From IMG/VR virus record IMGVR_UViG_3300045988_171102: 64,000 nucleotides of DNA; one strand, written 5' to 3'. A program made the position numbers and the translations under genes. Of the stretch, positions 800 to 30,212 are shown piece after piece. The notes under the pieces were generated by a model. The model did no database searches. It had not been told where the DNA came from and saw nothing but the letters and a program-made list of their open reading frames with translations. Numbering within the stretch: position 1 is the first letter of the stretch; every line of letters starts with the position of its first letter. This DNA is from a virus.

Positions 800-828
800 T
801 TGACAAAATTCTCCAAATAGTGTATCAT
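800..828 (+). promoter_or_regulatory. Sigma-A type promoter of sRNA-A
   Basis: TTGACA (800-805), a 17-nt spacer, then TATCAT (823-828). Confidence 0.6.
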
Positions 829-834
829 TATGTT

Positions 835-936
835 AGGCTTAGAAAATGGGTAGGCTAACGCTGACCATCTTTCGATAGCTTACTTGGTATAGACATCACC
901 AGATTTTCGCAGGTCGAAGTGATGTCTATTTTTTTA
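835..936 (+). ncRNA. Candidate small RNA A (about 100 nt)
   Basis: A consensus promoter is followed by an intrinsic terminator: 11-bp stem 889-899/919-929 plus a T-run at 930-935. There is no ORF. It contains GCTAACGCT (854-862). Confidence 0.5.
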
Positions 937-953
937 TGTATAAAACCTTTGTT

Positions 954-11346: not shown

Positions 11347-12213
11347 CTAAATAAGTGTATAACCACACCATTCTCTTGCGAATTTACGGCAAAATTCTGC
11401 ATCTGTAAAAGTAACATCAACCCTTCCATTCTTGAAGAGTTTGATATGCTTGACTCCGACCTCTGGTGCTGAAAATCCATTCTGAAAATCATCCTCTTCA
11501 AGTCTTATAGAATAAGAGTCATATAGATGATTCAGTGAATAAACTTGTGTTTTTTCTCCATATGTATTAAATGCCAACGCATCAATAAAAGCACATAACC
11601 ATTCTGTACCACCGAAATTGTAATAATCAAAATATTTTTCTTTACTACAATAACCACCTGTATATGTGAATTTATTACCTTTTACTTTAATTTTCCATGT
11701 ATCACGATAGCCGTTGTAACATTTTTCTTTCAATTTATCTTTTATTTCTTTGATAGCCTTTTCTTCAAAACTCATACCGCCTAACTGGTCAAAAATCTTG
11801 TCAAGCACTGCATGGTAGTCAATGAAGTCAACAACAAGCTCTTTGATAGGTTCTGAGTCAGTGTATCTGTAATATTCTCTATCCAGATCATATCTATCAA
11901 AATTGTTTTCAAGTTGCACATTATACTTATTTGAAAAGTAACTGAAAATACCGCTTATATAATTATTTTGAACATCAGAAAGCGATTTTGGGACACCAAA
12001 ATTCCCAACTAAAAAAGAAGAATACTTGTAATTTTTGCGGTCTTCTTCTGAATATGATTCATTTTCTGCCTTATAGATATTATAAACAGACTTGTAAACT
12101 GCAATTGCTCGTTTGTATAATTCCTCTCTGTGAGTCAACCATGCTTGATCTTCCTTGCTGATTCTATCAGATTTCTTAATTTGAAAGTTTCCGAATTTAT
12201 CTGTAATTCCCAT
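11347..12213 (-). CDS. Hypothetical protein (288 aa), possibly a methylase-associated DUF4942-like protein
   Basis: ORF track entry. The C-terminal VKHIKLFKNGRVDVTFTD resembles, from memory only, the C-terminus of DUF4942 proteins. It sits next to the methyltransferase gene. Confidence 0.3.
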   Translation of the reverse strand: MGITDKFGNFQIKKSDRISKEDQAWLTHREELYKRAIAVYKSVYNIYKAENESYSEEDRKNYKYSSFLVGNFGVPKSLSDVQNNYISGIFSYFSNKYNVQLENNFDRYDLDREYYRYTDSEPIKELVVDFIDYHAVLDKIFDQLGGMSFEEKAIKEIKDKLKEKCYNGYRDTWKIKVKGNKFTYTGGYCSKEKYFDYYNFGGTEWLCAFIDALAFNTYGEKTQVYSLNHLYDSYSIRLEEDDFQNGFSAPEVGVKHIKLFKNGRVDVTFTDAEFCRKFAREWCGYTLI

Positions 12214-12270
12214 TTTATAACTCTCCTTTATACTTTTAATTTTTAACCTGTACGATGCATTGTTTTCTCT

Positions 12271-14100
12271 TTAAAATACAGGCTTATATGTATTGATAAT
12301 AGGTTTCAATCCTTGTTCCGCAAAGTATTCAAGTATAGCATCATACTGCTTTCTATCAAATAATGCCCATTTAGATTTTTGTGTAATACAATGTTCTTTG
12401 TATGATATATCAAACAGAACTGTATCAGGAAGGTCATACCATCCATTGTAGATGATAACATCTCCATAAAACCACTTATAATAAAGACCTTTCTTTCTAT
12501 GCGGCTTGAATGTCATTTTCACAGAATTATCATACTGTGCGTATTGCCCGATTTCGTAACTATGAAATGTTACTTTTGATACCGACATCATACCAAAGTC
12601 GCTATACTTTACGATTGTGATTCTCTGTCCTGCCTCAAGGTTTGTATTTTTGAATTGTTCCGCTATGCTGTCAACTTCTGTAAGAACCTTATACATAACC
12701 GTTTTAAGTTCGGGAATTGTAATTGCTCTGACAATGCCGGCATTCAACTTGAATTTATTTGCATAAATCCATTCTTTCATACAAGCCTTATATAAATCAA
12801 AATCTTCATCCTGCCATGTCTTTTTGATTTCATTTTGGCTGATAATCTCGGTGCTGACATCTTCAATAGTTTCTGCAAGTTCAATATTATGCTGATGTTC
12901 TTCTTCACTAATACCATAATCTGAATGGTAAGTGTCAACCTTTTGGCTCTGCTCATCGTAAACATATACATATCTTGCATAATTGTAACCCTGTGGATCA
13001 ACGATAAGTTTCAGTTCACCATCACAATATATAGCAACGCAATCAATATTGTACCACTCGACAGTTTCCCTTTCTTCTTCGGTCATCATATCGTAGTCTA
13101 TTGATGATTGGATTCTACTGTCATCTGTACGGCTTCCGCCCATTCCATCAAAGAATGAATAATCGCTCATCAACTGTTTTTCAAAAAGTGCATAGACCTC
13201 TGTGGTAAAATGTACTTCTCTGGAAACCTGACAAGTTTCTCTACACTGTTTTTCATCATAAATTTCAGTGTGGTCAAGGTTGTCATCTTTGTTAGCCTTT
13301 AGAATGGCATTCACGATAGTATAATCAACCGCTTTAATCTCTGCGTTCTTTTCAATTCTGCGGATTTTCTTCTGTCGTTCTGCTTCTGCTTTTTCATACT
13401 CCGCCTGCCTGATTTTATATTCTTCAACACCTTTTTTAATTCGTTCTTCTTCCTGCTTCTTTTGTTCGGCATCAAACTCTGATTTTTTTACAAGAAAATC
13501 TGTTTCAAGCTCTGTTTCGTTCGGTTTACATTCACGCTGATTATAGTTGTAATTTACAATGTCATTTTTATAAACGCCGTAAAAATTGACATCAAAATAA
13601 TCTGTCATGCTGTCGCTGTTGTCATAATTCCAGCTCTGCGCATATGTATAAGCATAATTAACAATAGCCTTCAAAGCCTCTGAATTCCGTGAAAATGGGC
13701 TTTCAAGCAATTCAACACGAATACTGTTATAATCACTCGTAACCGACCATTTGCACATTGAAAACCTATTCCGTAAATGTTTACGAATATTGGCAGCAAT
13801 TTCTTTTGTATTCGTTATGTGGGTTTTACCGTAATTATCTTCAATTCCTTCTGTATGTGTTAAAGACCATAAGTCAATGTTAGTTTCTGTTTTTGGCTTA
13901 TACTCAAAACTGCCTTCCGATTCTGAAATTTGATTAGCAAGAGCAACCGTGTCATCGTTTTGTTTTGCGTACCACATCCGCTGTTTTCCATTCCAACGAA
14001 ATCCCGCTTCTTTAATGGCAGTAATAACATCTGTATTCGGTTTAGTGTCAAAGCGTAATTCAATGCCGTTCTTCTCTGTATTTAATGTAATGTTTAACAT
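12271..14100 (-). CDS. Large hypothetical protein (609 aa) with a central coiled coil
   Basis: ORF track entry. The N-terminal GFRWNGKQRMWYAK motif resembles modules of polyvalent proteins from mobile elements. There is a K/E-rich coiled coil (EQKKQEEERIKKG...). Confidence 0.7.
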   Translation of the reverse strand: MLNITLNTEKNGIELRFDTKPNTDVITAIKEAGFRWNGKQRMWYAKQNDDTVALANQISESEGSFEYKPKTETNIDLWSLTHTEGIEDNYGKTHITNTKEIAANIRKHLRNRFSMCKWSVTSDYNSIRVELLESPFSRNSEALKAIVNYAYTYAQSWNYDNSDSMTDYFDVNFYGVYKNDIVNYNYNQRECKPNETELETDFLVKKSEFDAEQKKQEEERIKKGVEEYKIRQAEYEKAEAERQKKIRRIEKNAEIKAVDYTIVNAILKANKDDNLDHTEIYDEKQCRETCQVSREVHFTTEVYALFEKQLMSDYSFFDGMGGSRTDDSRIQSSIDYDMMTEEERETVEWYNIDCVAIYCDGELKLIVDPQGYNYARYVYVYDEQSQKVDTYHSDYGISEEEHQHNIELAETIEDVSTEIISQNEIKKTWQDEDFDLYKACMKEWIYANKFKLNAGIVRAITIPELKTVMYKVLTEVDSIAEQFKNTNLEAGQRITIVKYSDFGMMSVSKVTFHSYEIGQYAQYDNSVKMTFKPHRKKGLYYKWFYGDVIIYNGWYDLPDTVLFDISYKEHCITQKSKWALFDRKQYDAILEYFAEQGLKPIINTYKPVF

Positions 14101-18932: not shown

Positions 18933-19658
18933 ATATTATTGTTTATGGCAGGCAGGAAGATAGGCAAGAAAAAAAGCACAAAAGTGCTTTAACAAATTAA
19001 AGTGTTATAAAAAATATAAGTATTTATTTCGTTGAAGTGCATTTATATATACTTATAAATAATATAACTGTATAATCAATGAATGCACGAAGTCTTTTAA
19101 TACTTTAATGTACTAAAGTGTTATAATAAATATAACTGTATTTTCTCCCGCTCCCACGAACTTATAAAACAGCTCTTCAAGCTCTTTTCTTCTTTTCTAA
19201 CTGTCCGCTTTTTGATGTTTTGTGGACAATTAACAAGTTTTTTAATGCCGATGAAGTAAGATAACGCAAGCTGCTAAAACAAATAAGAAACAATTTTTTT
19301 CAAATTTTAAGAATTAAAATAATCAAAAAACCTCCGATATTATCTATCTTTTTTTTGATTTTCTTAAAGTTTAAAGTATAATGCAAAAGCAAAAAAATAC
19401 AATAATTTATAATTCAAATTTCATAACGCTAACGCTTTATGCCGTACACTAAACGGCTATATATAGGGGGGTAGTTTACATTCCCTAAACGATTTTCATT
19501 TCCAATAAAGGGCATAGTACACTCATCCAAATATTCGCCACCAAAAATCCAATTATGAATTTCCCCACCTCCCCTATCTCTAAAATCCCCTATTTTTTAC
19601 TCTTATATTTTTGACCACTTTTTTTCAACCAATTTAAAAATTATTAATGCTTTATAAA

Positions 19659-19960
19659 TTCCTTAAATACCGCATATTCAAGCCATTTTTTACTTATTAA
19701 ACCTACACAACATTATTTTCATATTTAACCCCTTTAAACTTCCTTAAAACCTCATTGCCAAGCCATTTTCACGAACTTAACATAGAATTAATAAAAAAAC
19801 GCAATTTTACAAATTATAGTATCCCCAATAATACAATTAATATATTCTTTAGGTTTTAAGCCATTTTTTAAATAATTTACGCTTTAAATAATTTCATAAT
19901 CTTAATAGATTCAATATTCAAGTTCATTCCAATTCATTTTCTTAAAATACCGTATATCTA
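19659..19960 (+). repeat. Iteron-like degenerate direct repeats (TTCCTTAAA.ACC.CAT...CAAGCCATTTT family)
   Basis: Full copies lie at 19659-19690 and 19740-19770, 81 bp apart. Partial copies lie at 19851-19870, 19911-19930 and 19939-19958. AAGCCATTTTTT also occurs at 26394-26405. Confidence 0.5.
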
Positions 19961-20186
19961 AATGCAAAAAAATACTTTATTTTTTTCAACTGCTATTTCT
20001 GTAACCATATACAACTTTTAACTTATTACTCTTATTTCCCATTATTGCTTAATAATCATATTAAAAAACAATTTCAATTCTTAGTTTAACCACTCATTTT
20101 TGTATGAAGTGGTCTTTTTATTTCTTAAAGATCTAATTAAACAACCACACTAACGCTACAGTAAAATTACAAAAATTATTATGTCA

Positions 20187-20305
20187 GACAACAAATTGAA
20201 AATAAGAGACGAGTAAACTCGGATGTTATTTTCTGTTTGTTGTCGTAAACAGTTGTTGATTGTTTTACCTTCAGGTGAAACAAGAAATGACTGTTTACTT
20301 TTATT
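20187..20305 (+). ncRNA. Two adjacent long hairpins ending in a U-tract (candidate structured RNA)
   Basis: Hairpin 1 spans 20187-20244 (GACAACAA/TTGTTGTC outer stem, GAAAATAA/TTATTTTC, CGAG/CTCG). Hairpin 2 spans 20245-20298 (GTAAACAG/CTGTTTAC, GTTTTACC/GGTGAAAC). TTTTATT follows. Confidence 0.3.
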
Positions 20306-20723
20306 GGCTTGGCAACAATTATGTGATAAGAAATTTATTTGTTATAATTCACAATAATAAGTATCTCTTATGCTCTTCATAGTCTCTATACGCTCTCAGA
20401 TTGCAATGAACTCTCTTTTATGTAAAAAATACCCTAATACACCAATAACTTTGCTTACAATCAATTTTTAAGCCTTTTAGAGCACATTCTGTTTTATTTA
20501 ATTCTTTAATAATTACTTTTAAAAAATACAACATATCTCTATTTTGCTCTATTTTGCCCTGTATTCGATTTTTTGGTTTAGCAATGTAATTATACTATTT
20601 TTGTATTTTAGTTTAATACAAGCCAATTTTCGCAAGAATAGAATAAGTTTTGAACGCAAATGCTTATTACATATTGATTTAATATTAATTTAATAATATT
20701 TTTTACTTTTTTTACTGAAACTA

Positions 20724-20751
20724 TTGCAATTTTAAAATTATCTGTTATAAT
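20724..20751 (+). promoter_or_regulatory. Extended -10 promoter reading into the AGCGTTAGC sites
   Basis: TTGCAA (20724-20729), a 16-nt spacer, then TGtTATAAT (20743-20751). Confidence 0.5.
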
Positions 20752-20820
20752 ATATTTTAGACATATCAGTTACAAGTGACGGTTAAAGATTATTTGTATT
20801 TACATGTTCAGGATTAAATA

Positions 20821-20911
20821 AGCGTTAGCGTTTTAATCCGTTTAAGGTTTAATTATCGCTAAGCGTTAGCTTAGTGAGAAATAAACCGCAATCAGCCCCC
20901 GTAGCGTTAGC
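20821..20911 (+). repeat. Three AGCGTTAGC sites spaced exactly 41 bp apart
   Basis: Copies lie at 20821-20829, 20862-20870 and 20903-20911. Copies 2 and 3 form 6-bp stems with a GTTA loop (CTAAGC-GTTA-GCTTAG and CGTAGC-GTTA-GCTACG). Copy 1 lies in the loop of an 8-bp stem. Confidence 0.7.
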
Positions 20912-21090
20912 TACGGCACAAAAGAATGAATATATCTAACTAATAAGTTTTCTTATTGGTTTGTTTCTTTTTACTTATGTTCACCGTCATTTGTAATTTA
21001 TGTTTTATTTGACTATTTATTTTATTCTTTTGTTTCTTATTTCTTATTTTCTTAATTTTATTTTGAATTTAAAGAAAGAACCAAAGAAAG

Positions 21091-21128
21091 GATTTACTTA
21101 TTACCCCTAAAGGGGTAATAAGTAAATC
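21091..21128. repeat. Perfect 38-bp inverted repeat
   Basis: GATTTACTTATTACCCCT-AA-AGGGGTAATAAGTAAATC has 18-bp arms with no mismatch. Confidence 0.85.
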
Positions 21129-21220
21129 TAATAATATTAAATTTCTTATATTTATTTCTTATATTATTTATATTATTAAATATATATTATATTATAAATT
21201 TATATTATAAATAACAAAAA
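21129..21220. other. Nearly pure A+T tract (candidate DNA unwinding element)
   Basis: About 90 bp with only a handful of C residues and reiterated ATATTAT/TTATATT motifs, lying between the palindrome and the Rep-like gene. Confidence 0.5.
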
Positions 21221-21329
21221 GGTGTGAGTAAAAAACGAACACCGTATTAATGAACTTTTATTTATAAAAGGTTGTGTGCAAAAAATAGTCGAAAAGTGGT
21301 TACAATTTTGTTACAAAAAGGATGATTGA

Positions 21330-22349
21330 ATGGTGTATACATATAAAAATGAGTTTGTCAATTTTAAGTTACTTGTAAATCAATCAGTTACTTCTAACAT
21401 GACAATACCAAAAAACATTATTGATGAATTATTCAAAAATAAAAATGAAAAAGTTTGGTTTGCGTATTATGTTATGAGAGGGCTTGGGCGGTTAATTATG
21501 TATTCACAAGCAATACATAGTTGGAAGCAAGATAAATTTCAGGCAAGCAATCAAAAAAATGGTAATAAGATTATTGCCGATTATTTTAATAACATAAGAC
21601 TTATTGAAATCAAACGCAGCTTCACTGACTTGACCAAAGACATATTTGAGAATTTTTCATTTTATGTAATTTTTGAAACTTTATTTCCTTTTGTAGATAG
21701 AAAGTTTTATAAGTCACTTGAGAAAATCTTTTTTGATGGATTAGAATATTTCATTAAACAAGGTAAGATTGTACGAATTTGTAATCGTAGAATTGGTTAT
21801 CCGTATTATCGGACTATGTATTGGAACATCACTGTTGATATAAAGCCAATTTACATTACAGATGAGTTTGCAGATGAATTAACAGTTGAGACACTTAACT
21901 TACCTAATAATATTTTAAACACTTCTTACTCATTTAAATCTGAATGGTTAAGTCAATGTTTTAAGATTACCGAAGCGAATCCAATGAAGGCATTAAGGAT
22001 GTCGAGAGTTTTGTGTTTTATAATAAATAAAAGAATTAAGCGATATCATAAAAAAATTGCATATCTATCATTTAGGACATTGAGCAACCTTACAGGACTT
22101 TGTGAACGAAGTATTAAAAATTATGTAAAAGAATTACGAGATAATAATTTACTTTATTATGACAACTATATTTTAATTGCGAATCCTCTGAAGCAGGTGT
22201 GTAAGTATAGCAAAAATTTTTATTGCCTGCCTGAAGATAAAGACTATTTAGAGAAAATAGTTGAAAAATATAGAATTAAAAAAATTGAAGCAGAACAAAA
22301 TACAAAAGCGAAACAACCAATAAATGAAATGATAGAAAATTTTGAATGA
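21330..22349 (+). CDS. Replication initiator-like protein with a C-terminal winged-helix motif (339 aa)
   Basis: ORF track entry. LSFRTLSNLTGLCERSIKNYVKELRDNNLLYY looks like a wHTH. It lies immediately downstream of the iteron/A+T region. Confidence 0.5.
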   Translation: MVYTYKNEFVNFKLLVNQSVTSNMTIPKNIIDELFKNKNEKVWFAYYVMRGLGRLIMYSQAIHSWKQDKFQASNQKNGNKIIADYFNNIRLIEIKRSFTDLTKDIFENFSFYVIFETLFPFVDRKFYKSLEKIFFDGLEYFIKQGKIVRICNRRIGYPYYRTMYWNITVDIKPIYITDEFADELTVETLNLPNNILNTSYSFKSEWLSQCFKITEANPMKALRMSRVLCFIINKRIKRYHKKIAYLSFRTLSNLTGLCERSIKNYVKELRDNNLLYYDNYILIANPLKQVCKYSKNFYCLPEDKDYLEKIVEKYRIKKIEAEQNTKAKQPINEMIENFE

Positions 22350-23441: not shown

Positions 23442-26318
23442 ATGGCTCAAAGCAAAGCTGTAAATATACCGTTATTGGACGGTAAAGATGTGTATATTGC
23501 AAATCATTATATTAACAATAGTTTGAACGGATATACACTTAGAGACAAATTTGGTGACTTAAATATAAAGAAATTTGTCGCCACAATGGATTATAGTTTA
23601 GACTTAATTAAATTGAATGATGTTTACAAAGAAGTGTATCGAAATAGAAATTTTTATGAATATGTTGGCAGAAATAAAAAATATACAAGGCATGTTATAA
23701 ATGTCACTTTTAAATACAGCAATAAACTTTACAATCGGGCTGGTTCAGGTTTGTATATTAAATTCGGTTACTCCCCTACCGAAGTTATATTAGAAAATAA
23801 TGCTTGTATTAAAGATGGTACTTTAATAGCTATTCGAGTATTGCCAGATGGTAAAGAAAAAAATATTACAGAAGATTATCTTGTGAAGTCTCCCCTTTCA
23901 CAAGAAATCTTAGGTGAATATTTTTTTTATGATAAAGAATTATCTGTTTATAGAGCTAAAGATAATATTGAGACATTAACCTCAATTTCTGACATTAGAA
24001 CTGATTTATATGAAAATGGTTTTGTTTGTGACGGAATTAAGTATGTACGATTTAAACGCAGTAGTGGTAGCAGTCGTGTAGGTAAATGCCTATTTATTGA
24101 CGAAAAATTATACAAAAAGATGCATAAATGGGAAATGTGTGGATTAAATGTAAAGAATGGTGTTAAATGTGATTTGGCGAGTCTTGAGCCTTATATAGCA
24201 TTAACTCTTTCTTCTATCATAGACACAATAACCATTGAACCAAATGAAATTCTTGTCATCCCCGATTATGAAAGCAAATTTACGACAACTTGCGTTGCTA
24301 CAGAACTTGATAAGGATAATAGACTTATTTCGTCAGCAAAACAAGTTGATATGTCAAATAGTATTTGGGATGGACAGTCCTTATTAGATGTTAGTAAATT
24401 TGAGGACTACAAAAATTATGGTATGTTGTTATTGCGTACACGTTTTTTTAAATCTGCTTGTTTTAATACTAATATTCAGCAATGGTTTACTGATAACGGA
24501 ATCACTGACATATCGCAATTAAATGGATATACTCAAGCCACAAAATTGTCTGATATTAAATTAATTACTACTCCAAGCAGTATTAAATATTTAAAATTTG
24601 GTTCTTTAGAAGATTGGCTATGGACAATTGAACCACAATTTGGTGTTGTAAAACATGAAAAGCCTACTCATTATTTTGATGGTAGAATGGTTCAAACACA
24701 TTATCAATTGCTTAATACTTTACAATTGACGAAAGATGAAGTAGAGAAATTTATTCAACCTACAATTGACTATATTATGAAATTGAAAACAGACAGTGCT
24801 GTATTTAGGCATCACATTAAATATTCAATTCCTGAATATACAAATGCTGAATCTCAACAATTGGCGAATAAAAATGATATTGTATATTACTTGCTTGGAC
24901 TAAATAATAAATTTAGCCAAACCAAAATGTACAAAGACTTTTGTAATGAAACTGTTAAGGCATTTGTTAAAAACTGTCGCAAGGGACATATCTTCGTACA
25001 TGGTAATTATTCAACACTATTTGGCAACCCTATCGAAATGCTACAAAGTTGCATTGGACGATTTAATGGAGAACCTAAAATTAAAGCAGGCACAGTACAT
25101 TGTACGATGTTTAATAATGGTGATAAGTTAATAGGAAGTCGTTCTCCTCATGTTACAATGGGAAATATTTTATGTTGTCAGAATGTAATATATGAGGACA
25201 TTAATAAATATTTTAATTTAAGTAATGAGATAGTATGTGTCAATAGTATTCGTGATAATTTATTAGAGAGATTAAGTGGTTCAGATTTTGATTCTGACAC
25301 TGTTTTGTTGACAGATAATAAAATATTATATCAAGCTGCAATTCGTAATTATGATAATTTTCTTGTACCGACAAAATTAGTGTCAAGTAAAAAATGTGAG
25401 CGTAGATATACGGCACGAGATAAAGCTGAACTTGACATTAAGACAGGAACAAATAAAATTGGAGAAATCATTAATTTATCTCAAGAATTAAATTCTAAGT
25501 TATGGGAATTAATTTATAACGGATATGATATACAATCAAATGAGGTACAATCACTTTATGCTGATATTGCACAATTAGATGTGATGAGCAATTTGGAGAT
25601 TGATTCAGCTAAAAGAGAAAATCCGGCAAACAATTCTATGGAGCTTAAATTATTAAAAGCTAAATATGCTGTATATGATAACAAAGGTAGATATGTCCGA
25701 CCACTATTTTTTAAATATTTGGATAAGTATAAGGGGTATGACAATAATCGAAAACATTATCGGCTTTATAATACTACGATGGATTATGTCGAACTTGCTT
25801 TAAATAAAATACCTCGTGTAAGAAATAATGCTCCCCTTTTAAATTTATCAGACATTTTTAAATCATCTAATGCAATTGATGGACAAGTGTATTATGAACA
25901 AGTTGAGCGTATATTGTCCGCCATTCAAGATACTAAAGACGAAATTGGTCATTTGTGGTCAAAGTATAAATCTAAAACTGGGAATGTTAATAAAGGTGAA
26001 GATGCTTTCTCTTATGAGCAGTGTTTAAAGATGACAGAAGAAGCAAAAGAAGATTGCGTAGAATATATTAATTCACTTAAAATTTCTAAAAAAACAATGC
26101 GTTATCTTTTATCTTTAATCGAAAAACCCACACATAAAAATTATTCAGCATTATTTTTATCAGCAATATTCACTTACCACAATATAAATTTTGATGAATT
26201 AGTTGCCGATAGTCAAGAAAATGTATTTCAAATTAAAGAATGTCCGATAGAATCAGAACAGTATGACATTAAGTTATATGACTTTAATTACCGATATGTA
26301 AGTAATGTGAATACATAA
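23442..26318 (+). CDS. YonO/RdRP-like two-barrel single-subunit RNA polymerase (958 aa)
   Basis: LSGSDFDSDTVLL (DFDSD at nt 25284-25298) resembles the DxDGD catalytic loop (SGGDLDGD) of QDE-1-type RdRPs, YonO and the beta-prime NADFDGD. The upstream GSRSPHVTMGNI resembles RNPCLHPGDI. The size is appropriate. Confidence 0.6.
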   Translation: MAQSKAVNIPLLDGKDVYIANHYINNSLNGYTLRDKFGDLNIKKFVATMDYSLDLIKLNDVYKEVYRNRNFYEYVGRNKKYTRHVINVTFKYSNKLYNRAGSGLYIKFGYSPTEVILENNACIKDGTLIAIRVLPDGKEKNITEDYLVKSPLSQEILGEYFFYDKELSVYRAKDNIETLTSISDIRTDLYENGFVCDGIKYVRFKRSSGSSRVGKCLFIDEKLYKKMHKWEMCGLNVKNGVKCDLASLEPYIALTLSSIIDTITIEPNEILVIPDYESKFTTTCVATELDKDNRLISSAKQVDMSNSIWDGQSLLDVSKFEDYKNYGMLLLRTRFFKSACFNTNIQQWFTDNGITDISQLNGYTQATKLSDIKLITTPSSIKYLKFGSLEDWLWTIEPQFGVVKHEKPTHYFDGRMVQTHYQLLNTLQLTKDEVEKFIQPTIDYIMKLKTDSAVFRHHIKYSIPEYTNAESQQLANKNDIVYYLLGLNNKFSQTKMYKDFCNETVKAFVKNCRKGHIFVHGNYSTLFGNPIEMLQSCIGRFNGEPKIKAGTVHCTMFNNGDKLIGSRSPHVTMGNILCCQNVIYEDINKYFNLSNEIVCVNSIRDNLLERLSGSDFDSDTVLLTDNKILYQAAIRNYDNFLVPTKLVSSKKCERRYTARDKAELDIKTGTNKIGEIINLSQELNSKLWELIYNGYDIQSNEVQSLYADIAQLDVMSNLEIDSAKRENPANNSMELKLLKAKYAVYDNKGRYVRPLFFKYLDKYKGYDNNRKHYRLYNTTMDYVELALNKIPRVRNNAPLLNLSDIFKSSNAIDGQVYYEQVERILSAIQDTKDEIGHLWSKYKSKTGNVNKGEDAFSYEQCLKMTEEAKEDCVEYINSLKISKKTMRYLLSLIEKPTHKNYSALFLSAIFTYHNINFDELVADSQENVFQIKECPIESEQYDIKLYDFNYRYVSNVNT

Positions 26319-26490
26319 AAATAGCTCATTTTTTGCAAAAAACGGCAAAAAACTAAGTTTTTTAAATTGAAATCTTCAAAAAAGCCAGTATTTAAGCCAT
26401 TTTTTATAATAAATAAAAGATGTATATGGTAAAGAGAGTGAACCTCCCCATCACTCTCTTTAAATATAATTTAGAAAGAGTGATTTATTT

Positions 26491-26691
26491 TTGTTTCCTA
26501 TTACAAAGGAAGAAAGTATAAAAATCAGAAAGAAATATCCTGAAGCAGAAATCAGAAGAACTGTTAAGCAGAAAAGTAAGAGGCATAAATATTTTTGTCC
26601 AGAGATAAAAAAATATCTTGTATTAATCAAAGATACGAATGAGATAGCTTGTTCAATCTATACACGAAAGAGAAAATACTTTAATGCTTAA
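26491..26691 (+). CDS. Basic small protein (66 aa, TTG start)
   Basis: ORF track entry; overlaps the start of the next gene. Confidence 0.55.
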   Translation: MFPITKEESIKIRKKYPEAEIRRTVKQKSKRHKYFCPEIKKYLVLIKDTNEIACSIYTRKRKYFNA

Positions 26692-28063: not shown

Positions 28064-29056
28064 ATGCCTGTAAGAAGTAAAAAGATATGTCTACTTGACT
28101 ATGATAAACTAAGCAAAGTTAATTCTGAAACGCTTAAATTATACAAGAAATATGAAGCTGATATGGCTATTCGAGAATTGTCCAAAAAATCTATTGCAGT
28201 GTATTACAATGACCTTGTTAATTGGTGGATGTACATTTATGACTATCAGGATAATCGCTCAGTCAAAGAAATTAACGAAGATGACATTATTGAATTTATT
28301 TACTTCTGTAAGCAGAATGGTAATAACACAGAAAGAATAAAGCATAGAATGGCTTCAATTTCAGCTTTTTATAAATTTTTAAGAAAAAGAAAATTAATTG
28401 TAGAAAATCCAATGGATTATGTTGACCGTCCAAAAAAAGGTCAAGCTGTTGTTAAGCAGACTTTTTTAACTGTTGAACAAGTAGATACAATGAGAAAAGT
28501 CTTAAAGCAGAAGATTGAGGATAGTAAAAATAAATCCTTGCGTTGTAAACATGACTCGATTATGTTGAGGGTGTATGCAGAATTTTCGCTTATTACAATG
28601 GCAAGAATAAATGCTATTGCTAATTTGCGTTGGGAACAAATTGATTTTGCTGAATGTGTCGCAAACGATGTTATTGAAAAATTAGGCAAAATTGTAAGTT
28701 TGTACTTTGATGAGAGCACTAAAGAGTATTTGATTGAATTACAGAATTTCAGAAAAGAAAACAGAATTAACGATAATGGATGGGTGTTTTATTCTATGGC
28801 ATCGCAGACAGGCAATCACTTATCAACAACAGCCTTATCTGATATGTGCAAAGAAATTGGACAAATGATTAGTGTTCCTACCCTACATCCACACGATTTT
28901 CGTCATAGTGGTGCTACTTTATACAAGAATGCAGGAATGTCATTAGAAGAAGTTTCTCACTGTCTGCATCATGAAAGTACAGAAGTTACCCGAAAATTTT
29001 ACATCAAAGAAAATGACACTGAATTAAGAGCGAAAAAGAATCAGTGTCATATTTAA
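28064..29056 (+). CDS. Tyrosine recombinase (XerC/D- or phage-integrase-family, 330 aa)
   Basis: TMARINAIANLRWEQID, HPHDFRHSGATLYKNAGMSLEEVSHCLHHESTEVTRKFY (R..HxxR..H..Y catalytic pattern) and an N-terminal SAM-like core-binding region. Confidence 0.85.
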   Translation: MPVRSKKICLLDYDKLSKVNSETLKLYKKYEADMAIRELSKKSIAVYYNDLVNWWMYIYDYQDNRSVKEINEDDIIEFIYFCKQNGNNTERIKHRMASISAFYKFLRKRKLIVENPMDYVDRPKKGQAVVKQTFLTVEQVDTMRKVLKQKIEDSKNKSLRCKHDSIMLRVYAEFSLITMARINAIANLRWEQIDFAECVANDVIEKLGKIVSLYFDESTKEYLIELQNFRKENRINDNGWVFYSMASQTGNHLSTTALSDMCKEIGQMISVPTLHPHDFRHSGATLYKNAGMSLEEVSHCLHHESTEVTRKFYIKENDTELRAKKNQCHI

Positions 29057-29072: not shown

Positions 29073-30212
29073 GTGGCAAACAATACAACTACCAAAACTC
29101 AGCGTGAATATAAATGTAAAATATGTGGAAAGTCATATAAAAATATTACAGGCAATTTTTATAAATCTGCTAATTCTTTATATTTCATTAGTAATAATGG
29201 CATTATAGATGTGTGCGTAGATTGCTTAAAGGAGTTATTTAGTCAATTAAGTAAAAAATATGATTCTGATAGAATGGCACTTATTGCAATTTGTGCTTTA
29301 ACCGATTGGTATTACGATGAAAGTGCATATAATACAGCGATAAAAAATCGAGAAGAATTTAGTATTGGTGTATATGCAAGACTTATGAACACTGTTAAGT
29401 ATAAAGGAAAAACTTTTATTACCAGTGTTGCAGAGAAAAAACTGGGGGAAACAACCATTCAAATGGTTGAGCAGACTCATGATGTGGGTTGGAATGATAT
29501 TGATAAAAAGAACAGAGATACTGTAATTGAGATTTATGGATATGATCCATTCCCTGATAATGATTTTTCAGATAAAAGTAGAAAATATTTATTTAATACA
29601 ATAATAGATTTTCTTGATGAAGAAACTCAAGAAGATGCTTTCAAGAAATCACAAATCATTCAAATTGTTGTTAATAACGAAATGATTCAAAGGTGTAATG
29701 CAAAAATTGCTTCACTTGATGAAACAAGAGATCTTGAGCAAATTAAAAACTTAAGTAACATTATTACCTCGAAAGTTAATGATAATGATAAAATCGCAAA
29801 AGAAAACGAAATCTCCGTTAGAAATCGTAGTAATAAAAAACAAGGTAAAGGTACATTTACAGATTTGCAAAAAGAATTAAGGTTAAAAAACTTTGATGAA
29901 GCAGAAGCAAATTATTACAAGCAATTACAATCTGAGGGCAGTGCATGGGCTGTTAATCAATCTATGCAAGCAATAAAGAAAAATTCCTTTTTTGATGAAA
30001 GTGACCAAAAAGAAATTGTAGATATACAAAGAGAACTGATAGAAAAAAAGGATAAGGCATTAGATGATGCTTTAGAAGAAAACAGATTATTGTATGTAAA
30101 TATTGAGAAATATAAATCTCAAATAAAGGAACTTGAAAATAAAAATAGCGAACTTAATGAAGAGTTGACAAGCTTTAATAACAAACATAATACAGGTGAT
30201 GACAATGAGTAG
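29073..30212 (+). CDS. Zn-ribbon/coiled-coil protein, possible small terminase subunit (379 aa)
   Basis: Lies immediately upstream of and overlapping terL. The N-terminus carries CKICGK...CVDC. The assignment rests on position only. Confidence 0.35.
   Translation: MANNTTTKTQREYKCKICGKSYKNITGNFYKSANSLYFISNNGIIDVCVDCLKELFSQLSKKYDSDRMALIAICALTDWYYDESAYNTAIKNREEFSIGVYARLMNTVKYKGKTFITSVAEKKLGETTIQMVEQTHDVGWNDIDKKNRDTVIEIYGYDPFPDNDFSDKSRKYLFNTIIDFLDEETQEDAFKKSQIIQIVVNNEMIQRCNAKIASLDETRDLEQIKNLSNIITSKVNDNDKIAKENEISVRNRSNKKQGKGTFTDLQKELRLKNFDEAEANYYKQLQSEGSAWAVNQSMQAIKKNSFFDESDQKEIVDIQRELIEKKDKALDDALEENRLLYVNIEKYKSQIKELENKNSELNEELTSFNNKHNTGDDNE

What the first reader, a model, noticed from the sequence alone, without database searches (positions are those of the whole stretch)
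18933..21329. 2.4-kb ORF-free island in an otherwise tightly packed phage genome
Between the RHH gene and the Rep-like gene the supplied track shows no ORF of 60 aa or more on either strand, whereas typical intergenic gaps elsewhere are under 100 bp. The island holds at least four repeat families, an extended -10 promoter with no ORF behind it, several long hairpins, a perfect palindrome and an A+T tract. An origin normally needs only a few hundred bp. The excess suggests additional functions such as a partition centromere, pac/cos, incompatibility determinants, long or multiple non-coding RNAs, or promoters for the phage RNAP.
Basis: partly seen in the sequence, partly recalled or inferred. 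Interest (0 to 1): 0.7.

Follow-up and report, generated by a model that had tools for sequence, protein, structure and literature searches.

The report
Packaging-start and control region of phage
The 2.4-kb gene-free stretch is real and conserved, and its centre matches the mapped spot where SPbeta-type phages start cutting and packaging their DNA, followed by a tract almost lacking G, lineage-specific RNA hairpins and an origin-like segment next to the replication gene.

Summary
Window 18933-21329 is the largest ORF-free interval (2,397 bp; next 491 bp; median 63 bp). It stays ORF-free under stop-codon recoding and in every relative recovered, including ones whose Rep is only 52-55% identical.

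The window is a ~100-kb temperate phage of the SPbeta type, with a YonO-type RNA polymerase, a YonF-type terminase and a YonG_N protein.

Positions 19458-19542 carry a two-box element: TATATA-G6-TAGTTTACAT, then a second box exactly 40 nt later. The same element occurs once per genome upstream of yonO-like genes in at least 35 viral contigs and in Bacillus SPbeta. There it coincides to the base with the published genome-opening (pac) point, TAGC|ACTTCC.

A 600-nt tract with 4.8% G starts at the predicted cut (19518|19519). This bias recurs in all 18 loci tested although the sequence does not.

Downstream lie two long plus-strand hairpins, a conserved extended -10 promoter with three hairpins, a perfect palindrome, an 87-nt tract of 3.4% G+C, and rep.

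So this is a composite pac, leading-end and origin-like control region, not a plasmid partition hub. The pac call rests on homology; the origin and the role of the G-poor tract are inferred.

The parts
18973..18990 (.). Short G+C-containing hairpin (AAAGCAC-AAAA-GTGCTTT) just after the upstream small gene.
   Evidence: The terminator-like scan flags it on the - strand only. It lies in the sub-region that varies most among close relatives.
18999..19135 (+). Two 21-nt direct repeats, AAAGTGTTATAAWAAATATAA (18999-19019 and 19115-19135). The second carries the extended -10 TGTTATAAT (19119-19127).
   Evidence: Two copies are found against 0.11 expected. See also repeat finder families D3/D8 and the TGNTATAAT list.
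19199..19249 (.). Conserved 45-50-nt block, about 270-320 nt from the predicted cut. It is a possible distal edge of the packaging block, but this is not shown.
   Evidence: It is 89% identical to the distant relative L017, while the flanks are unalignable.
19355..19382 (+). Sigma-A-like promoter, TTGATT-16-TATAAT, facing the pac element.
   Evidence: Consensus scan, 10 of 12 matches. It is not clearly conserved in L017 (read).
19458..19481 (+). pac Box 1: TATATATA-GGGGGG-TAGTTTACAT.
   Evidence: It occurs once in the window. G5 and TTTACAT are invariant in 21 diverse elements, including SPbeta. It lies inside the published SPbeta pac fragment. An independent profile hits 19462-19538 at E 3e-9, with the next hit at 0.14.
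19513..19542 (+). pac Box 2 (CATAGT|ACACTCATCC...). The predicted cleavage / genome-opening point lies between 19518 and 19519. Packaging is predicted to run leftwards.
   Evidence: Box 2 starts exactly 40 nt after the start of TTTACAT in nearly all elements. The SPbeta, phi3T and Goe11 pac fragments begin at GCTATGG, the reverse complement of CCATAGC|. The BUCT083 record is opened at the same phosphodiester bond.
19519..20125 (+). G-depleted tract (G 4.8%, C 20%). It contains dispersed repeats of (ACCGCAT-N5)-AAGCCATTTT at 19669-19689, 19760-19769 and 19858-19867, with a degenerate copy at 19949.
   Evidence: Composition and the positions of the 29 G residues are, and skew. The same bias holds in 18 diverse loci, with G 4-11% against C 18-33% in the 500 nt after the cut. 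The repeat is shared with L017, L025 and L091.
20089..20123 (+). Weak terminator-like hairpin plus T-run at the end of the G-poor tract.
   Evidence: It folds at -9.4 kcal/mol with z = -3.1. It is not conserved in L017. Confidence is low.
20187..20298 (+). Two adjacent long hairpins (58 and 54 nt). They are most likely plus-strand RNA, and possibly processing sites.
   Evidence: The + strand folds at -56.3 kcal/mol (z = -9.1) against -38.7 for the - strand. Six relatives keep the pairs through GU/AU/GC changes that pair only on the + strand. The hairpins are nearly invariant among close relatives and 82% identical to L017. No copy was found in 32 other loci.
20340..20348 (+). Extended -10 sequence TGTTATAAT.
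   Evidence: It shares an 18-nt repeat with 20734-20751 (family D16). It is not conserved in L017.
20546..20641 (.). Conserved block of unknown role. It contains CTCTATTTTG x2 and AAGCCAATTT.
   Evidence: It is 78% identical to L017 amid unalignable flanks.
20724..20751 (+). Conserved extended -10 promoter, TTGCAA-16-TGtTATAAT, with no ORF behind it.
   Evidence: L017 keeps TTGCTT-17-TGgTATCAT at the equivalent place (read).
20811..20916 (+). Three hairpins, each presenting AGC-GUUA-GCU (20811-20839, 20846-20887, 20899-20916). A fourth, inverted copy of the 9-mer lies at 19428-19436.
   Evidence: AGCGTTAGC occurs 5 times in the window against 0.17 expected. The region folds at -42.9 kcal/mol with z = -6.4. 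L017 keeps three hairpins with different stem sequences.
20979..21090 (.). Highly conserved T-rich block: GTTCACCGTCATTTGTAATTTAT, then TTTCTTA repeats, then TTTAAAGAAAGAACCAAAGAAAG.
   Evidence: It is conserved in all lineages, including L015 and L017. Only 3-4% of columns vary among close relatives, as low as in the rep coding sequence.
21091..21128 (.). Perfect 18+18 palindrome (hairpin or cruciform). It may be a terminator or insulator, or an origin element.
   Evidence: 100% complementary arms. It folds at -26.5 kcal/mol with z = -8.1. Three different arm versions (window, L015, L017) are all perfect. The arms do not co-vary with Rep type, as shown by L019.
21129..21215 (.). A+T tract of tandem 9-18-nt repeats at 3.4% G+C. 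It is a candidate DNA-unwinding element and a hot spot for assembly breaks.
   Evidence: At least eight independent contigs end at 21154-21204.
21221..21243 (+). Hairpin GGTGTGAG-N7-ACACC upstream of rep. It is also the recombination boundary between Rep types.
   Evidence: It is invariant in all lineages. L019 switches from window-like to L017-like sequence exactly here.
21317..22349 (+). Ribosome-binding site (AAAGGATGA) and the rep-like gene (339 aa, HTH_36).
   Evidence: Homologues are listed.

Best explanation
The island is the main non-coding control region of an SPbeta-type temperate phage. It is built from four modules.

(1) 19458-19542 is the packaging-initiation site (pac, the genome-opening point). 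It has a conserved Box 1 (G-run + TAGTTTACAT) and a Box 2 placed 40 nt later. By homology, terminase cuts at 19518|19519. DNA is then packaged leftwards, through Box 1 and the minus-strand early genes.

(2) The 600-nt G-depleted tract begins at the cut. It is therefore the last DNA packaged. If ejection is last-in-first-out, as in SPP1 and lambda, it is the first DNA to enter a new host, just ahead of rep and the YonO-type RNA polymerase gene. Its few G residues partly fall in dispersed repeats (seen by eye, not counted; ACCGCAT...AAGCCATTTT). I take these to be binding sites for a packaging or transcription protein.

(3) 20187-20920 specifies plus-strand structured RNA. This comprises twin long hairpins and then a promoter-driven leader with three GUUA-loop hairpins. 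It probably controls processing and expression of the rightward rep-yonO transcripts.

(4) 20979-21329 is an origin-like and rep-control module: a conserved T-rich block, a covarying palindrome, an 87-nt tract of 3.4% G+C, a hairpin and the rep ribosome-binding site.

What is shown and what is inferred. Shown: the anatomy, the conservation, the homology to the SPbeta pac fragment, and the strand asymmetry of the hairpins. Inferred: cleavage at this position in this phage, the packaging direction, entry order, the role of the G-poor tract, and origin function.

Confidence by part: about 0.75 for the pac assignment, about 0.4 for the origin, and low for any specific role of the G-poor tract.
For: Phage type.
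- The 958-aa ORF matches SPbeta YonO at E 1e-9.
- TerL matches YonF at E 4e-12.
- YonG_N and YopX domains occur in relatives.
- The gene order yonO-exonuclease-...-YonG-TerL-portal is the same as in SPbeta.

The pac element.
- The motif is unique in the window.
- A profile built without the window or L017 hits only 19462-19538, at 32.9 bits and E 3e-9.
- 35 of 100 pattern-selected viral loci carry the full two-box element.
- Where enough sequence is held, a YonO-like gene lies 0.7-5 kb downstream on the same strand.
- SPbeta carries the element in the yonR-yonP gap.
- Restriction mapping and read-start analysis place pac in that gap (10.1101/2021.11.22.469490; PMC8270828).
- The published 250-bp pac fragments of SPbeta, phi3T and Goe11 start at the Box 2 position and contain Box 1.
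- The BUCT083 and BUCT082 records are opened at the two edges of that fragment.

The element is not coding.

The G-poor tract.
- In the window, G is 4.8%.
- The bias is present in 18 of 18 diverse loci tested although their sequences are unalignable.
- The tract keeps its orientation relative to Box 1/2 even where the downstream ORFs are on the other strand.

Structured RNA.

The gap is conserved in size (2.41-2.47 kb) and ORF-free in distant relatives.

The rep-proximal module is the most conserved part.
Against: - No physical-end data exist for this phage lineage. One apparent contig end at the predicted cut (L146) proved to be a storage-chunk boundary and not a contig end.
- Homology to SPbeta proteins is distant (23-26% identity).
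- Enterocloster phages with YonO-like genes lack the element, so it is not universal.
- The SPbeta authors interpret packaging as headful, yet the sharp 250-bp block could instead be a short terminal repeat. The exact end structure is therefore unsettled.
- AA/TT helical periodicity in the G-poor tract is only weak, which gives no clear support for DNA wrapping.
- Origin function has no direct support. The palindrome arms do not co-vary with Rep type. The GC-skew minimum coincides with the gene-strand switch and with the G-poor tract, so it is not independent evidence.
- Promoter-like sites in the island are not more numerous than in shuffles under the simple -35/-10 scan. Only the extended -10 class is enriched.
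Confidence: 0.6

Rival explanations
1. The whole island is an extended plasmid-type replication and maintenance hub of a phage-plasmid. On this reading it holds an origin with iterons, a partition centromere bound by the upstream small protein, and incompatibility determinants.
For: - A rep-like gene lies directly downstream.
- The island has a very A+T-rich tandem-repeat tract and a perfect palindrome.
- It has dispersed direct repeats.
- A small basic protein gene lies directly upstream.
- The assembly map is circular at about 100.2 kb.
Against: - The central element is homologous to the SPbeta pac site, not to any origin.
- The AAGCCATTTT-type repeats are irregularly spaced (80 and 98 nt) and lie 1.5 kb from rep.
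- The same repeats recur in phages L025 and L091 upstream of Box 1, in loci that gave no match to the window's island or rep region.
- No ParA/ParM or other partition protein was detected.
- The small upstream gene is replaced in close relatives L005 and L007 without loss of the island.
- A close relative lies in the middle of a 346-kb contig, as an integrated prophage would.
- The palindrome does not co-vary with Rep.
Confidence: 0.1
2. The G-depleted, C-rich tract acts at the RNA level. It is an untranslated, unstructured leader that serves as a very long Rho-utilisation (rut) site. It would insulate the rightward lytic operon (rep, yonO) from read-through during lysogeny. The twin hairpins behind it would be processing sites. 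This can coexist with the pac assignment.
For: - The C:G ratio is about 4-7 over 500-600 nt with no ORF, the classic compositional signature of rut sites by established knowledge.
- Plus-strand promoters lie upstream, at 19119 and 19355-19382.
- Plus-strand RNA structure begins right after the tract.
- SPbeta has the same tract between the yonR side and the MrpR-controlled PyonP promoter.
Against: - The tract starts exactly at the cut and always keeps its orientation relative to Box 1/2, even where downstream ORFs are on the opposite strand. This ties it to the DNA element rather than to a particular mRNA.
- It is far longer than any rut site needs to be.
- No transcript data are available.
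- Rho plays a minor role in many Firmicutes (own knowledge).
Confidence: 0.25
3. The dispersed AAGCCATTTT(TT) repeats in the G-poor tract are promoters for the phage's own YonO-type RNA polymerase. On this reading the tract is an array of phage-polymerase start sites.
For: - An identical 16-mer, TTTAAGCCATTTTTTA, occurs at 19855-19870 and at 26391-26406.
- The second site lies in the 365-bp gap between the YonO-like gene and the exonuclease gene. That is the position equivalent to the single mapped YonO start site in SPbeta (PMC5467207).
- L017 carries the variant AAGCCGTTTT both in that gap and in its tract.
- The YonO promoter sequence is unknown (no later report was found).
Against: - SPbeta, L020 and L133 share no motif between their tracts and their post-yonO gaps.
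- The region around the SPbeta YonO start site, bracketed by the published primers, shows no similarity.
- One shared 16-mer is thin evidence and could equally be a protein-binding site.
Confidence: 0.15
4. The island is decayed coding sequence, or it encodes several small proteins.
For: Several 30-49-aa ORFs exist. One of them, at 21000-21110, would encode a hydrophobic peptide resembling a type I toxin.
Against: - All relatives lack ORFs here.
- There are no open frames under alternative codes.
- The minus-strand frame across Box 1/2 is interrupted at different places in different phages.
- The ATG at 21000 is ATA in L015 and L017.
- Conservation comes as discrete blocks and hairpins, not with codon periodicity.
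Confidence: 0.03

Closest known systems
pac / genome-opening region of Bacillus phage SPbeta and relatives (yonR-yonP intergenic region; Fink & Zahler 1982; Kohm et al. 10.1101/2021.11.22.469490)
   Same: - The position is the same, upstream of the operon with the YonO-type polymerase gene.
- The Box 1 sequence is the same, apart from a G-to-A and an A-to-T difference.
- Box 2 lies at the identical 40-nt spacing.
- The G-depleted tract begins at the mapped opening point in both.
- The element occurs once per genome.
   Different: - The proteins are only 23-26% identical.
- The gap is 2.4 kb here against 0.95 kb in SPbeta.
- A rep-like gene and an origin-like module follow here, instead of PyonP with its MrpR operator (SPBRE).
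- The dispersed repeats differ: ACCGCAT..AAGCCATTTT here, ATCGTAA in SPbeta.
- Termini have not been mapped in this lineage.
- The published work gives a 250-bp fragment but no recognition motif.
pac of Bacillus phage SPP1 (pacL-pacC-pacR)
   Same: The logic is the same. A cleavage box is flanked by repeated boxes thought to bind the DNA-recognition subunit. One side is packaged and the other is not. Packaging is unidirectional from the cut.
   Different: There is no sequence similarity; the SPbeta review also reports none. SPP1 pac lies within or beside the small-terminase gene, whereas this site is 10.7 kb upstream of the terminase genes. No G-depleted tract is known for SPP1 (own knowledge).
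Left end of coliphage T7 (terminal repeat, short-repeat array, A1-A3 promoters, then early genes including the RNA polymerase gene)
   Same: By inference, a non-coding stretch lies at the genome end, with inward-facing host promoters and short repeats. The first genes reached include the phage RNA polymerase gene.
   Different: The polymerase family and the packaging enzymes are unrelated. Entry order and transcription-assisted entry are untested here. The T7 comparison rests on my own knowledge.
Theta-type origins with iterons and an A+T-rich unwinding element next to an initiator gene (for example lambda ori or iteron plasmids)
   Same: An A+T-rich tandem-repeat tract, an inverted repeat and a highly conserved block lie directly upstream of a gene with an initiator-like HTH domain.
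   Different: There is no regular iteron array next to the A+T tract. The palindrome does not co-vary with the initiator. The initiator identity is weak.

Membership tests
SPbeta-type pac / genome-opening site | The site lies in the large intergenic region upstream of, and on the same strand as, the operon carrying the YonO-type RNA polymerase gene. The phage must also have a YonF-type large terminase and a YonG-type protein. | tested here: met
   The YonO homologue is at 23442-26318. TerL matches YonF. YonG_N is found in orthologues. The element is 3.98 kb upstream on the same strand.
SPbeta-type pac / genome-opening site | Sequence match to the published ~250-bp pac fragment: the G-run plus TTTACAT box, and the opening-point box 44 nt after the start of TTTACAT. 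| tested here: met
   Alignment A1. An independent profile hits at E 3e-9 and only once in the window.
SPbeta-type pac / genome-opening site | Virion DNA ends or read starts pile up at the site. | not testable with these tools
   No read data are available. The one suggestive locus end (L146) is a storage boundary and not a contig end.
SPbeta-type pac / genome-opening site | The site occurs once per genome. | tested here: met
   There is one hit in 64 kb of a genome of about 100 kb and one per related locus. The remaining 36 kb was not examined.
Iteron-type replication origin | An A+T-rich unwinding element lies next to the initiator gene. | tested here: met
   21129-21215 is 3.4% G+C and lies 115 nt upstream of rep.
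Iteron-type replication origin | An array of direct repeats specific to the cognate initiator lies next to the unwinding element. | tested here: not met
   Only low-complexity T-rich and A+T repeats lie there. The AAGCCATTTT repeats are 1.3-1.6 kb away and are shared with loci that gave no match to the window's island or rep region. The palindrome is unchanged when the Rep type is swapped.
Iteron-type replication origin | A recognisable initiator protein. | tested here: inconclusive
   The evidence is HTH_36 at E 9e-7 and a weak phage O-like hit at E 0.009. There is no PDB or NCBIfam match.
Plasmid partition locus (parS/parC with ParA/ParM and a centromere-binding protein) | An adjacent NTPase gene and a centromere-binding protein gene. 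| tested here: not met
   No such domain is found in the neighbouring ORFs. The upstream small gene is dispensable in relatives.
Plasmid partition locus (parS/parC with ParA/ParM and a centromere-binding protein) | Extrachromosomal maintenance. | tested here: inconclusive
   A near-identical relative lies at 157-169 kb of a 346-kb contig, which suggests integration. The flanks were not read.
Described RNA families (Rfam 15) | A match at or near a family's gathering score. | tested here: not met
   There are no hits at the gathering score. Only two chance-level hits (E about 3) appear in the island.
Rho-utilisation (rut) region | A C-rich, G-poor, unstructured, untranslated RNA stretch of 70 nt or more. 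| tested here: inconclusive
   The composition fits strongly. Transcription and Rho dependence cannot be tested here.

The most novel reading that the evidence does not exclude
SPbeta-type phages, from Bacillus to human-gut Firmicutes, share a previously undefined bipartite packaging signal: G5-8-(A)T(A/G)GTTTACAT, then a 40-nt fixed spacer, then TAGCACTTCC. It is always followed, from the cleaved bond onward, by 350-800 nt of DNA kept almost free of G on one strand, although the sequence itself drifts freely.

The strand-specific base exclusion would be a functional requirement in its own right, either of the last-packaged, first-injected genome end or of its transcript. Examples of such a requirement are unstructured single strands for end processing or recombination, freedom from G/C-containing palindromic restriction sites, or an RNA that cannot fold. 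On this reading it is not a by-product of transcription or replication bias.
Probability: 0.4. Interest if true: 0.7.

Novelty: new member of a known kind. Interest (0 to 1): 0.5.

Why it matters
SPbeta is a 50-year-old model phage whose pac location is mapped. Its recognition sequence is still unknown; the authors only speculate that a 250-bp fragment contains it.

This comparison narrows the candidates to two short boxes at a fixed spacing, conserved across very distant relatives. It also predicts the cut site in an uncultured human-gut phage. Both points can be tested directly in B. subtilis by point mutation and by pac-dependent transduction assays.

It gives a sequence handle (model R1) for orienting and end-trimming SPbeta-like contigs in viromes.

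It also exposes an unexplained feature: base composition is conserved next to the cut, but sequence is not.

For this window specifically, the analysis replaces a 'phage-plasmid maintenance hub' reading with a 'packaging start / leading end plus origin-like module' reading.

Tried and rejected
- **Alternative genetic codes.** TAG, TGA or TAA recoding opens no gene.
- **Known RNAs.** No tRNA or tmRNA genes. No Rfam family at the gathering score or at E up to 5.
- **DNA similarity.** blastn of the island against the phage and plasmid collections gave no match.
- **Genome scan.** A genome-contig scan with the YonO-like protein found nothing.
- **Small ORF across Box 1/2.** The minus-strand 'VNYPP' frame is broken by stops at different places in different phages. 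Many pattern hits are coding coincidences, which I attribute by eye to a small-protein N-terminus (MTDNVNHPPHYK, DUF3310-like from memory) and to another coding region; neither was searched. They lack Box 2.
- **Box 1 as the YonO promoter.** The mapped SPbeta YonO start lies in the yonN-yonK gap, bracketed by the published primers, and shows no such motif.
- **Box 1 as the MrpR operator (SPBRE).** SPBRE is AAATACAAAWAATATGTATAWA, a different sequence located at PyonP.
- **Conserved partner gene.** The small upstream ORFs in other loci are mostly spurious or unrelated.
- **Physical-end evidence from contig ends.** L146 ends 2 nt from the predicted cut, but this is a storage boundary. The contig ends at 21154-21204 scatter within A+T repeats and are assembly breaks. 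The 100,188-bp contig closes on itself there.
- **Enterocloster phages.** They have YonO-like genes near their record starts but no pac element.
- **Twin-hairpin model R2.** It found no copy outside the lineage.
- **Helical periodicity of AA/TT in the tract.** Only a weak, broad rise at 10-11.5 bp.
- **Type I toxin-like ORF at 21000-21110.** The start codon is not conserved.
- **GC-skew minimum as origin evidence.** It is confounded by the strand switch and the G-poor tract.

Full report
**1. The observation**

The interval 18933-21329 has no ORF of 60 aa or more on either strand; the longest is 49 aa. Stop-free stretches reach at most 61 codons, and reassigning TAG or TGA opens nothing gene-sized.

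It is the largest ORF-free interval in the window at 2,397 bp. The next largest are 491 and 448 bp, and the median gap is 63 bp.

Every listed feature is present:
- two 21-nt repeats;
- three exact AAGCCATTTT copies;
- four AGCGTTAGC copies in the island, five in the window, against 0.17 expected;
- T-rich and A+T tandem repeats;
- three TGTTATAAT extended -10 boxes on the plus strand;
- long hairpins;
- an 18+18 perfect palindrome;
- an 87-nt tract of 3.4% G+C.

Positions 19519-20125 have 4.8% G against 20% C.

**2. What kind of genome this is**

The right arm encodes terminase, portal, tape measure, tail and endolysin. The left arm encodes a helicase-methylase and other early-type genes on the opposite strand.

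- The 958-aa ORF at 23442-26318 is a homologue of SPbeta YonO, the single-chain RNA polymerase (E 1e-9, 23% identity over 511 aa; PMC5467207).
- The large terminase matches SPbeta YonF.
- Orthologues of 29073-30212 carry the YonG_N domain, and a relative carries YopX.
- The gene order polymerase-exonuclease-...-YonG-terminase-portal mirrors SPbeta.

Related contigs come from human gut metagenomes. One 100,188-bp contig closes on itself. A near-identical relative sits in the middle of a 346-kb contig. This suggests an integrating temperate phage of about 100 kb rather than a plasmid.

**3. The gap is conserved, not decayed**

Close relatives are about 95% identical across the island. Variation is graded. 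In 18950-19400, 23-40% of columns vary. In 19400-20700 about 10% vary. In 20700-21330 only 3-4% vary, as low as in the rep coding sequence.

Relatives whose Rep is only 52-55% identical keep a gene-free gap of 2,410-2,474 bp at the same place.

Against the most distant relative, L017, only islands align:
- 19199-19243;
- 19434-19581;
- 20162-20311;
- 20546-20641;
- everything from 20896 into rep.

**4. The central element is an SPbeta-type pac site**

The block 19434-19581 contains TATATATA-GGGGGG-TAGTTTACAT, which occurs once in the window. The same motif is present in L017, L019 and the 176-kb phage MT835469, whose YonO-like protein is 44% identical.

A pattern scan of IMG/VR returned 119 or more loci. 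Many of these are coding coincidences. A large class, however, shares three further properties:
- a second box (consensus TAGCACTTCCAyTCaCACAC) starting exactly 40 nt after the T of TTTACAT;
- a strongly G-depleted 500-600 nt downstream;
- where enough sequence is held, a YonO-like gene 0.7-5 kb downstream on the same strand.

A sequence profile built from 19 such elements, excluding the window and L017, hits the window only at 19462-19538 (32.9 bits, E 3e-9; next best E 0.14). It finds full-length matches in 35 of the first 100 pattern loci. Neither strand is coding across the element.

Bacillus SPbeta itself carries TATATGGGGGTATATTTACAT, then 40 nt, then TAGCACTTCC in the yonR-yonP intergenic region, oriented towards yonP-yonO. 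That region is where restriction mapping, and later read-start analysis of SPbeta, phi3T and Goe11-14, placed the genome-opening point and pac site.

The supplement of that study prints the ~250-bp 'pac fragments'. They begin GCTATGGGTACAT... and contain ...ATGTAAATATACCCC.... In the orientation used here, this means the opening point is CCCATAGC|ACTTCC, inside Box 2, and the packaged DNA runs from the cut through Box 1, away from yonP.

Independently, the GenBank record of phage BUCT083 is opened at exactly that bond. BUCT082 starts at the other edge of the 250-bp block.

By alignment, the equivalent bond in the window is 19518|19519 (CATAGT|ACACTC). I therefore assign 19458-19542 as the pac / genome-opening site. 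The assignment rests on homology, because no read-level data exist for this lineage. One apparent contig end at the predicted cut turned out to be a storage boundary.

The element is distinct from the MrpR operator SPBRE, which sits at PyonP. It is also distinct from the mapped YonO start site.

**5. The G-depleted tract**

The tract begins at the cut and extends about 600 nt in the window, about 380 nt in SPbeta and about 830 nt in MT835469.

In 18 diverse loci the 500 nt after the cut hold 4-11% G against 18-33% C. The 500 nt before Box 1 are unbiased or biased the other way. The sequences themselves do not align, so composition is conserved and sequence is not.

By eye, several of the few G residues in the tract sit in short dispersed repeats; this was not counted:
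- ACCGCAT-N5-6-AAGCCATTTT in the window and L017, and also upstream of Box 1 in L025 and L091;
- ATCGTAA in the SPbeta group;
- TCTCGAAGT in MT835469.

The tract keeps its orientation relative to Box 1/2 even where the next ORFs are on the other strand. This ties it to the DNA element rather than to one mRNA.

Because packaging leaves the cut in the other direction, the tract is the last unique DNA packaged. If ejection is last-in-first-out, as in SPP1 and lambda (own knowledge), it leads the genome into the cell, followed by rep and the polymerase gene.

Possible roles, none tested:
- binding sites for the recognition subunit on the non-packaged side, as in SPP1 pacL;
- an unstructured end for resection and recombination;
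- freedom from G/C-containing palindromic restriction sites;
- at the RNA level, a very long Rho-utilisation-like insulator.

AA/TT helical periodicity is only weakly raised.

One 16-mer, TTTAAGCCATTTTTTA, recurs in the gap after the YonO-like gene, where SPbeta has its YonO promoter. The repeats could therefore be phage-polymerase promoters, but other lineages show no such sharing.

**6. The right half of the island**

*Twin hairpins.* Positions 20187-20298 form two adjacent long hairpins. The plus strand folds at -56.3 kcal/mol (z = -9.1) and the minus strand at -38.7, because several pairs are G.U. Substitutions among six relatives (GU/AU/GC, UG/UA) keep pairing only on the plus strand. The block is nearly invariant among close relatives. 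A covariance model finds it nowhere else, so it is a lineage-specific plus-strand RNA structure. I suggest processing sites, without evidence.

*Promoter and three hairpins.* The extended -10 promoter at 20724-20751 is conserved in L017 as TTGCTT-17-TGgTATCAT. It is followed by three hairpins that each display AGC-GUUA-GCU. L017 keeps three hairpins with different stems.

*Conserved block, palindrome and A+T tract.* Next comes the most conserved block of the island, a T-rich stretch. It is followed by the perfect palindrome, which exists in three different but always perfect versions, and then the 3.4% G+C tandem-repeat tract, where at least eight independent assemblies break.

*Hairpin before rep.* An invariant hairpin follows, and then rep. 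L019 has the window-type palindrome but an L017-type Rep (86% against 52% identity), with the switch exactly at that hairpin. The palindrome is therefore not a Rep-specific site.

This module looks like an origin and rep-control region, but that is an inference.

**7. Verdict**

- pac: yes, by homology to a mapped site;
- structured RNA: yes;
- origin: plausible;
- partition or plasmid functions: no support.

The thing is a new member of a known kind, the SPbeta-type packaging-start region. It adds two points not found in the literature I could search: a defined, widely conserved two-box signature, and a G-free tract starting at the cut.

Noticed in passing
window 23442-26318 (+): The 958-aa ORF is a homologue of SPbeta YonO, the single-chain RNA polymerase related to multi-subunit polymerases. 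It has no Pfam or PDB sequence match. It hits phrog_8308, and weakly hits a PHROG labelled 'RNA-dependent RNA polymerase'.
   Followed up: partly
window 26319-26683: This is a 365-bp gap between the YonO-like gene and the exonuclease gene, the position of the YonO late promoter in SPbeta. It holds AAGCCATTTTTTATAAT, shared with the G-poor tract. It also holds a hairpin with a CUCCCC loop whose stem differs in L017 but still pairs. It is a candidate late promoter or leader.
   Followed up: partly
window 800-937 (+): A putative ~100-nt small RNA. It has the promoter TTGACA-17-TATCAT (11 of 12 matches) and a strong terminator hairpin followed by U7. It contains GGC-UAAC-GCU, complementary to the GUUA loops of the three hairpins at 20811-20916. 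This could be a trans-acting regulator of the rep leader, or simply a fifth site for one DNA-binding protein.
   Followed up: partly
L020 (MT835469.1) 11884-13677: A GOLLD RNA (172.6 bits, above the gathering score) and three tRNA genes lie directly downstream of the YonO-like gene of this 176-kb gut phage. This is the same position as the unannotated non-coding RNA reported after yonO/yonN in SPbeta. The SPbeta gap itself gives a DUF3800-VIII RNA hit.
   Followed up: no
L152 (OBAS01000011.1, 157092-168857 of 346,492 nt): A near-identical relative of the window lies in the middle of a 346-kb metagenome contig. This suggests chromosomal integration. The flanks, attachment site and host were not read.
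   Followed up: no
The island beside it stays about 95% identical, so this is a mosaic module boundary at the left edge.
   Followed up: partly
window 21221-21243; L019 ~9900: Rep types have been exchanged by recombination exactly at the invariant hairpin GGTGTGAG..ACACC. L019 is window-like to its left and L017-like to its right.
   Followed up: yes
window 21154-21204 (and 20958-20963): At least eight independent contigs from different samples end inside the A+T tandem repeats. Two Logan contigs (L015, L016) both start about 367 nt upstream of rep. The scatter points to assembly breaks, but a second physical discontinuity is not excluded.
   Followed up: partly
L021 (SPbeta) 19532-19782; BUCT082 and BUCT083 records: The two sharp edges of the published 250-bp 'pac block' coincide with the linearisation points of two independent GenBank records. 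A sharply bounded block of fixed size resembles a short direct terminal repeat more than headful packaging.
   Followed up: no
window 19472-19481 (Box 1 core AGTTTACAT): From memory, AGTTTACATAA is the reverse complement of the XerD arm of Firmicutes dif (TTATGTAAACT), and UACAU is the B. subtilis MazF cleavage motif. A Xer-like recombinase gene (28064-29056) sits inside the packaging module of this lineage. No second Xer arm is present at the right spacing, so this is probably coincidence.
   Followed up: partly
L021 (SPbeta) 21250-21440 and 23640-23700: Shorter G-poor stretches also precede the SPBRE-controlled promoters of yonT and yonX in SPbeta. G depletion upstream of early promoters may therefore be more general in this phage.
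   Followed up: no
L077, L097, L121 (IMG/VR contigs of 120-125 kb): Three contigs of one sub-lineage all begin 460-477 nt downstream of Box 1. This could be a shared assembly break or a real end. It was not examined.
   Followed up: no
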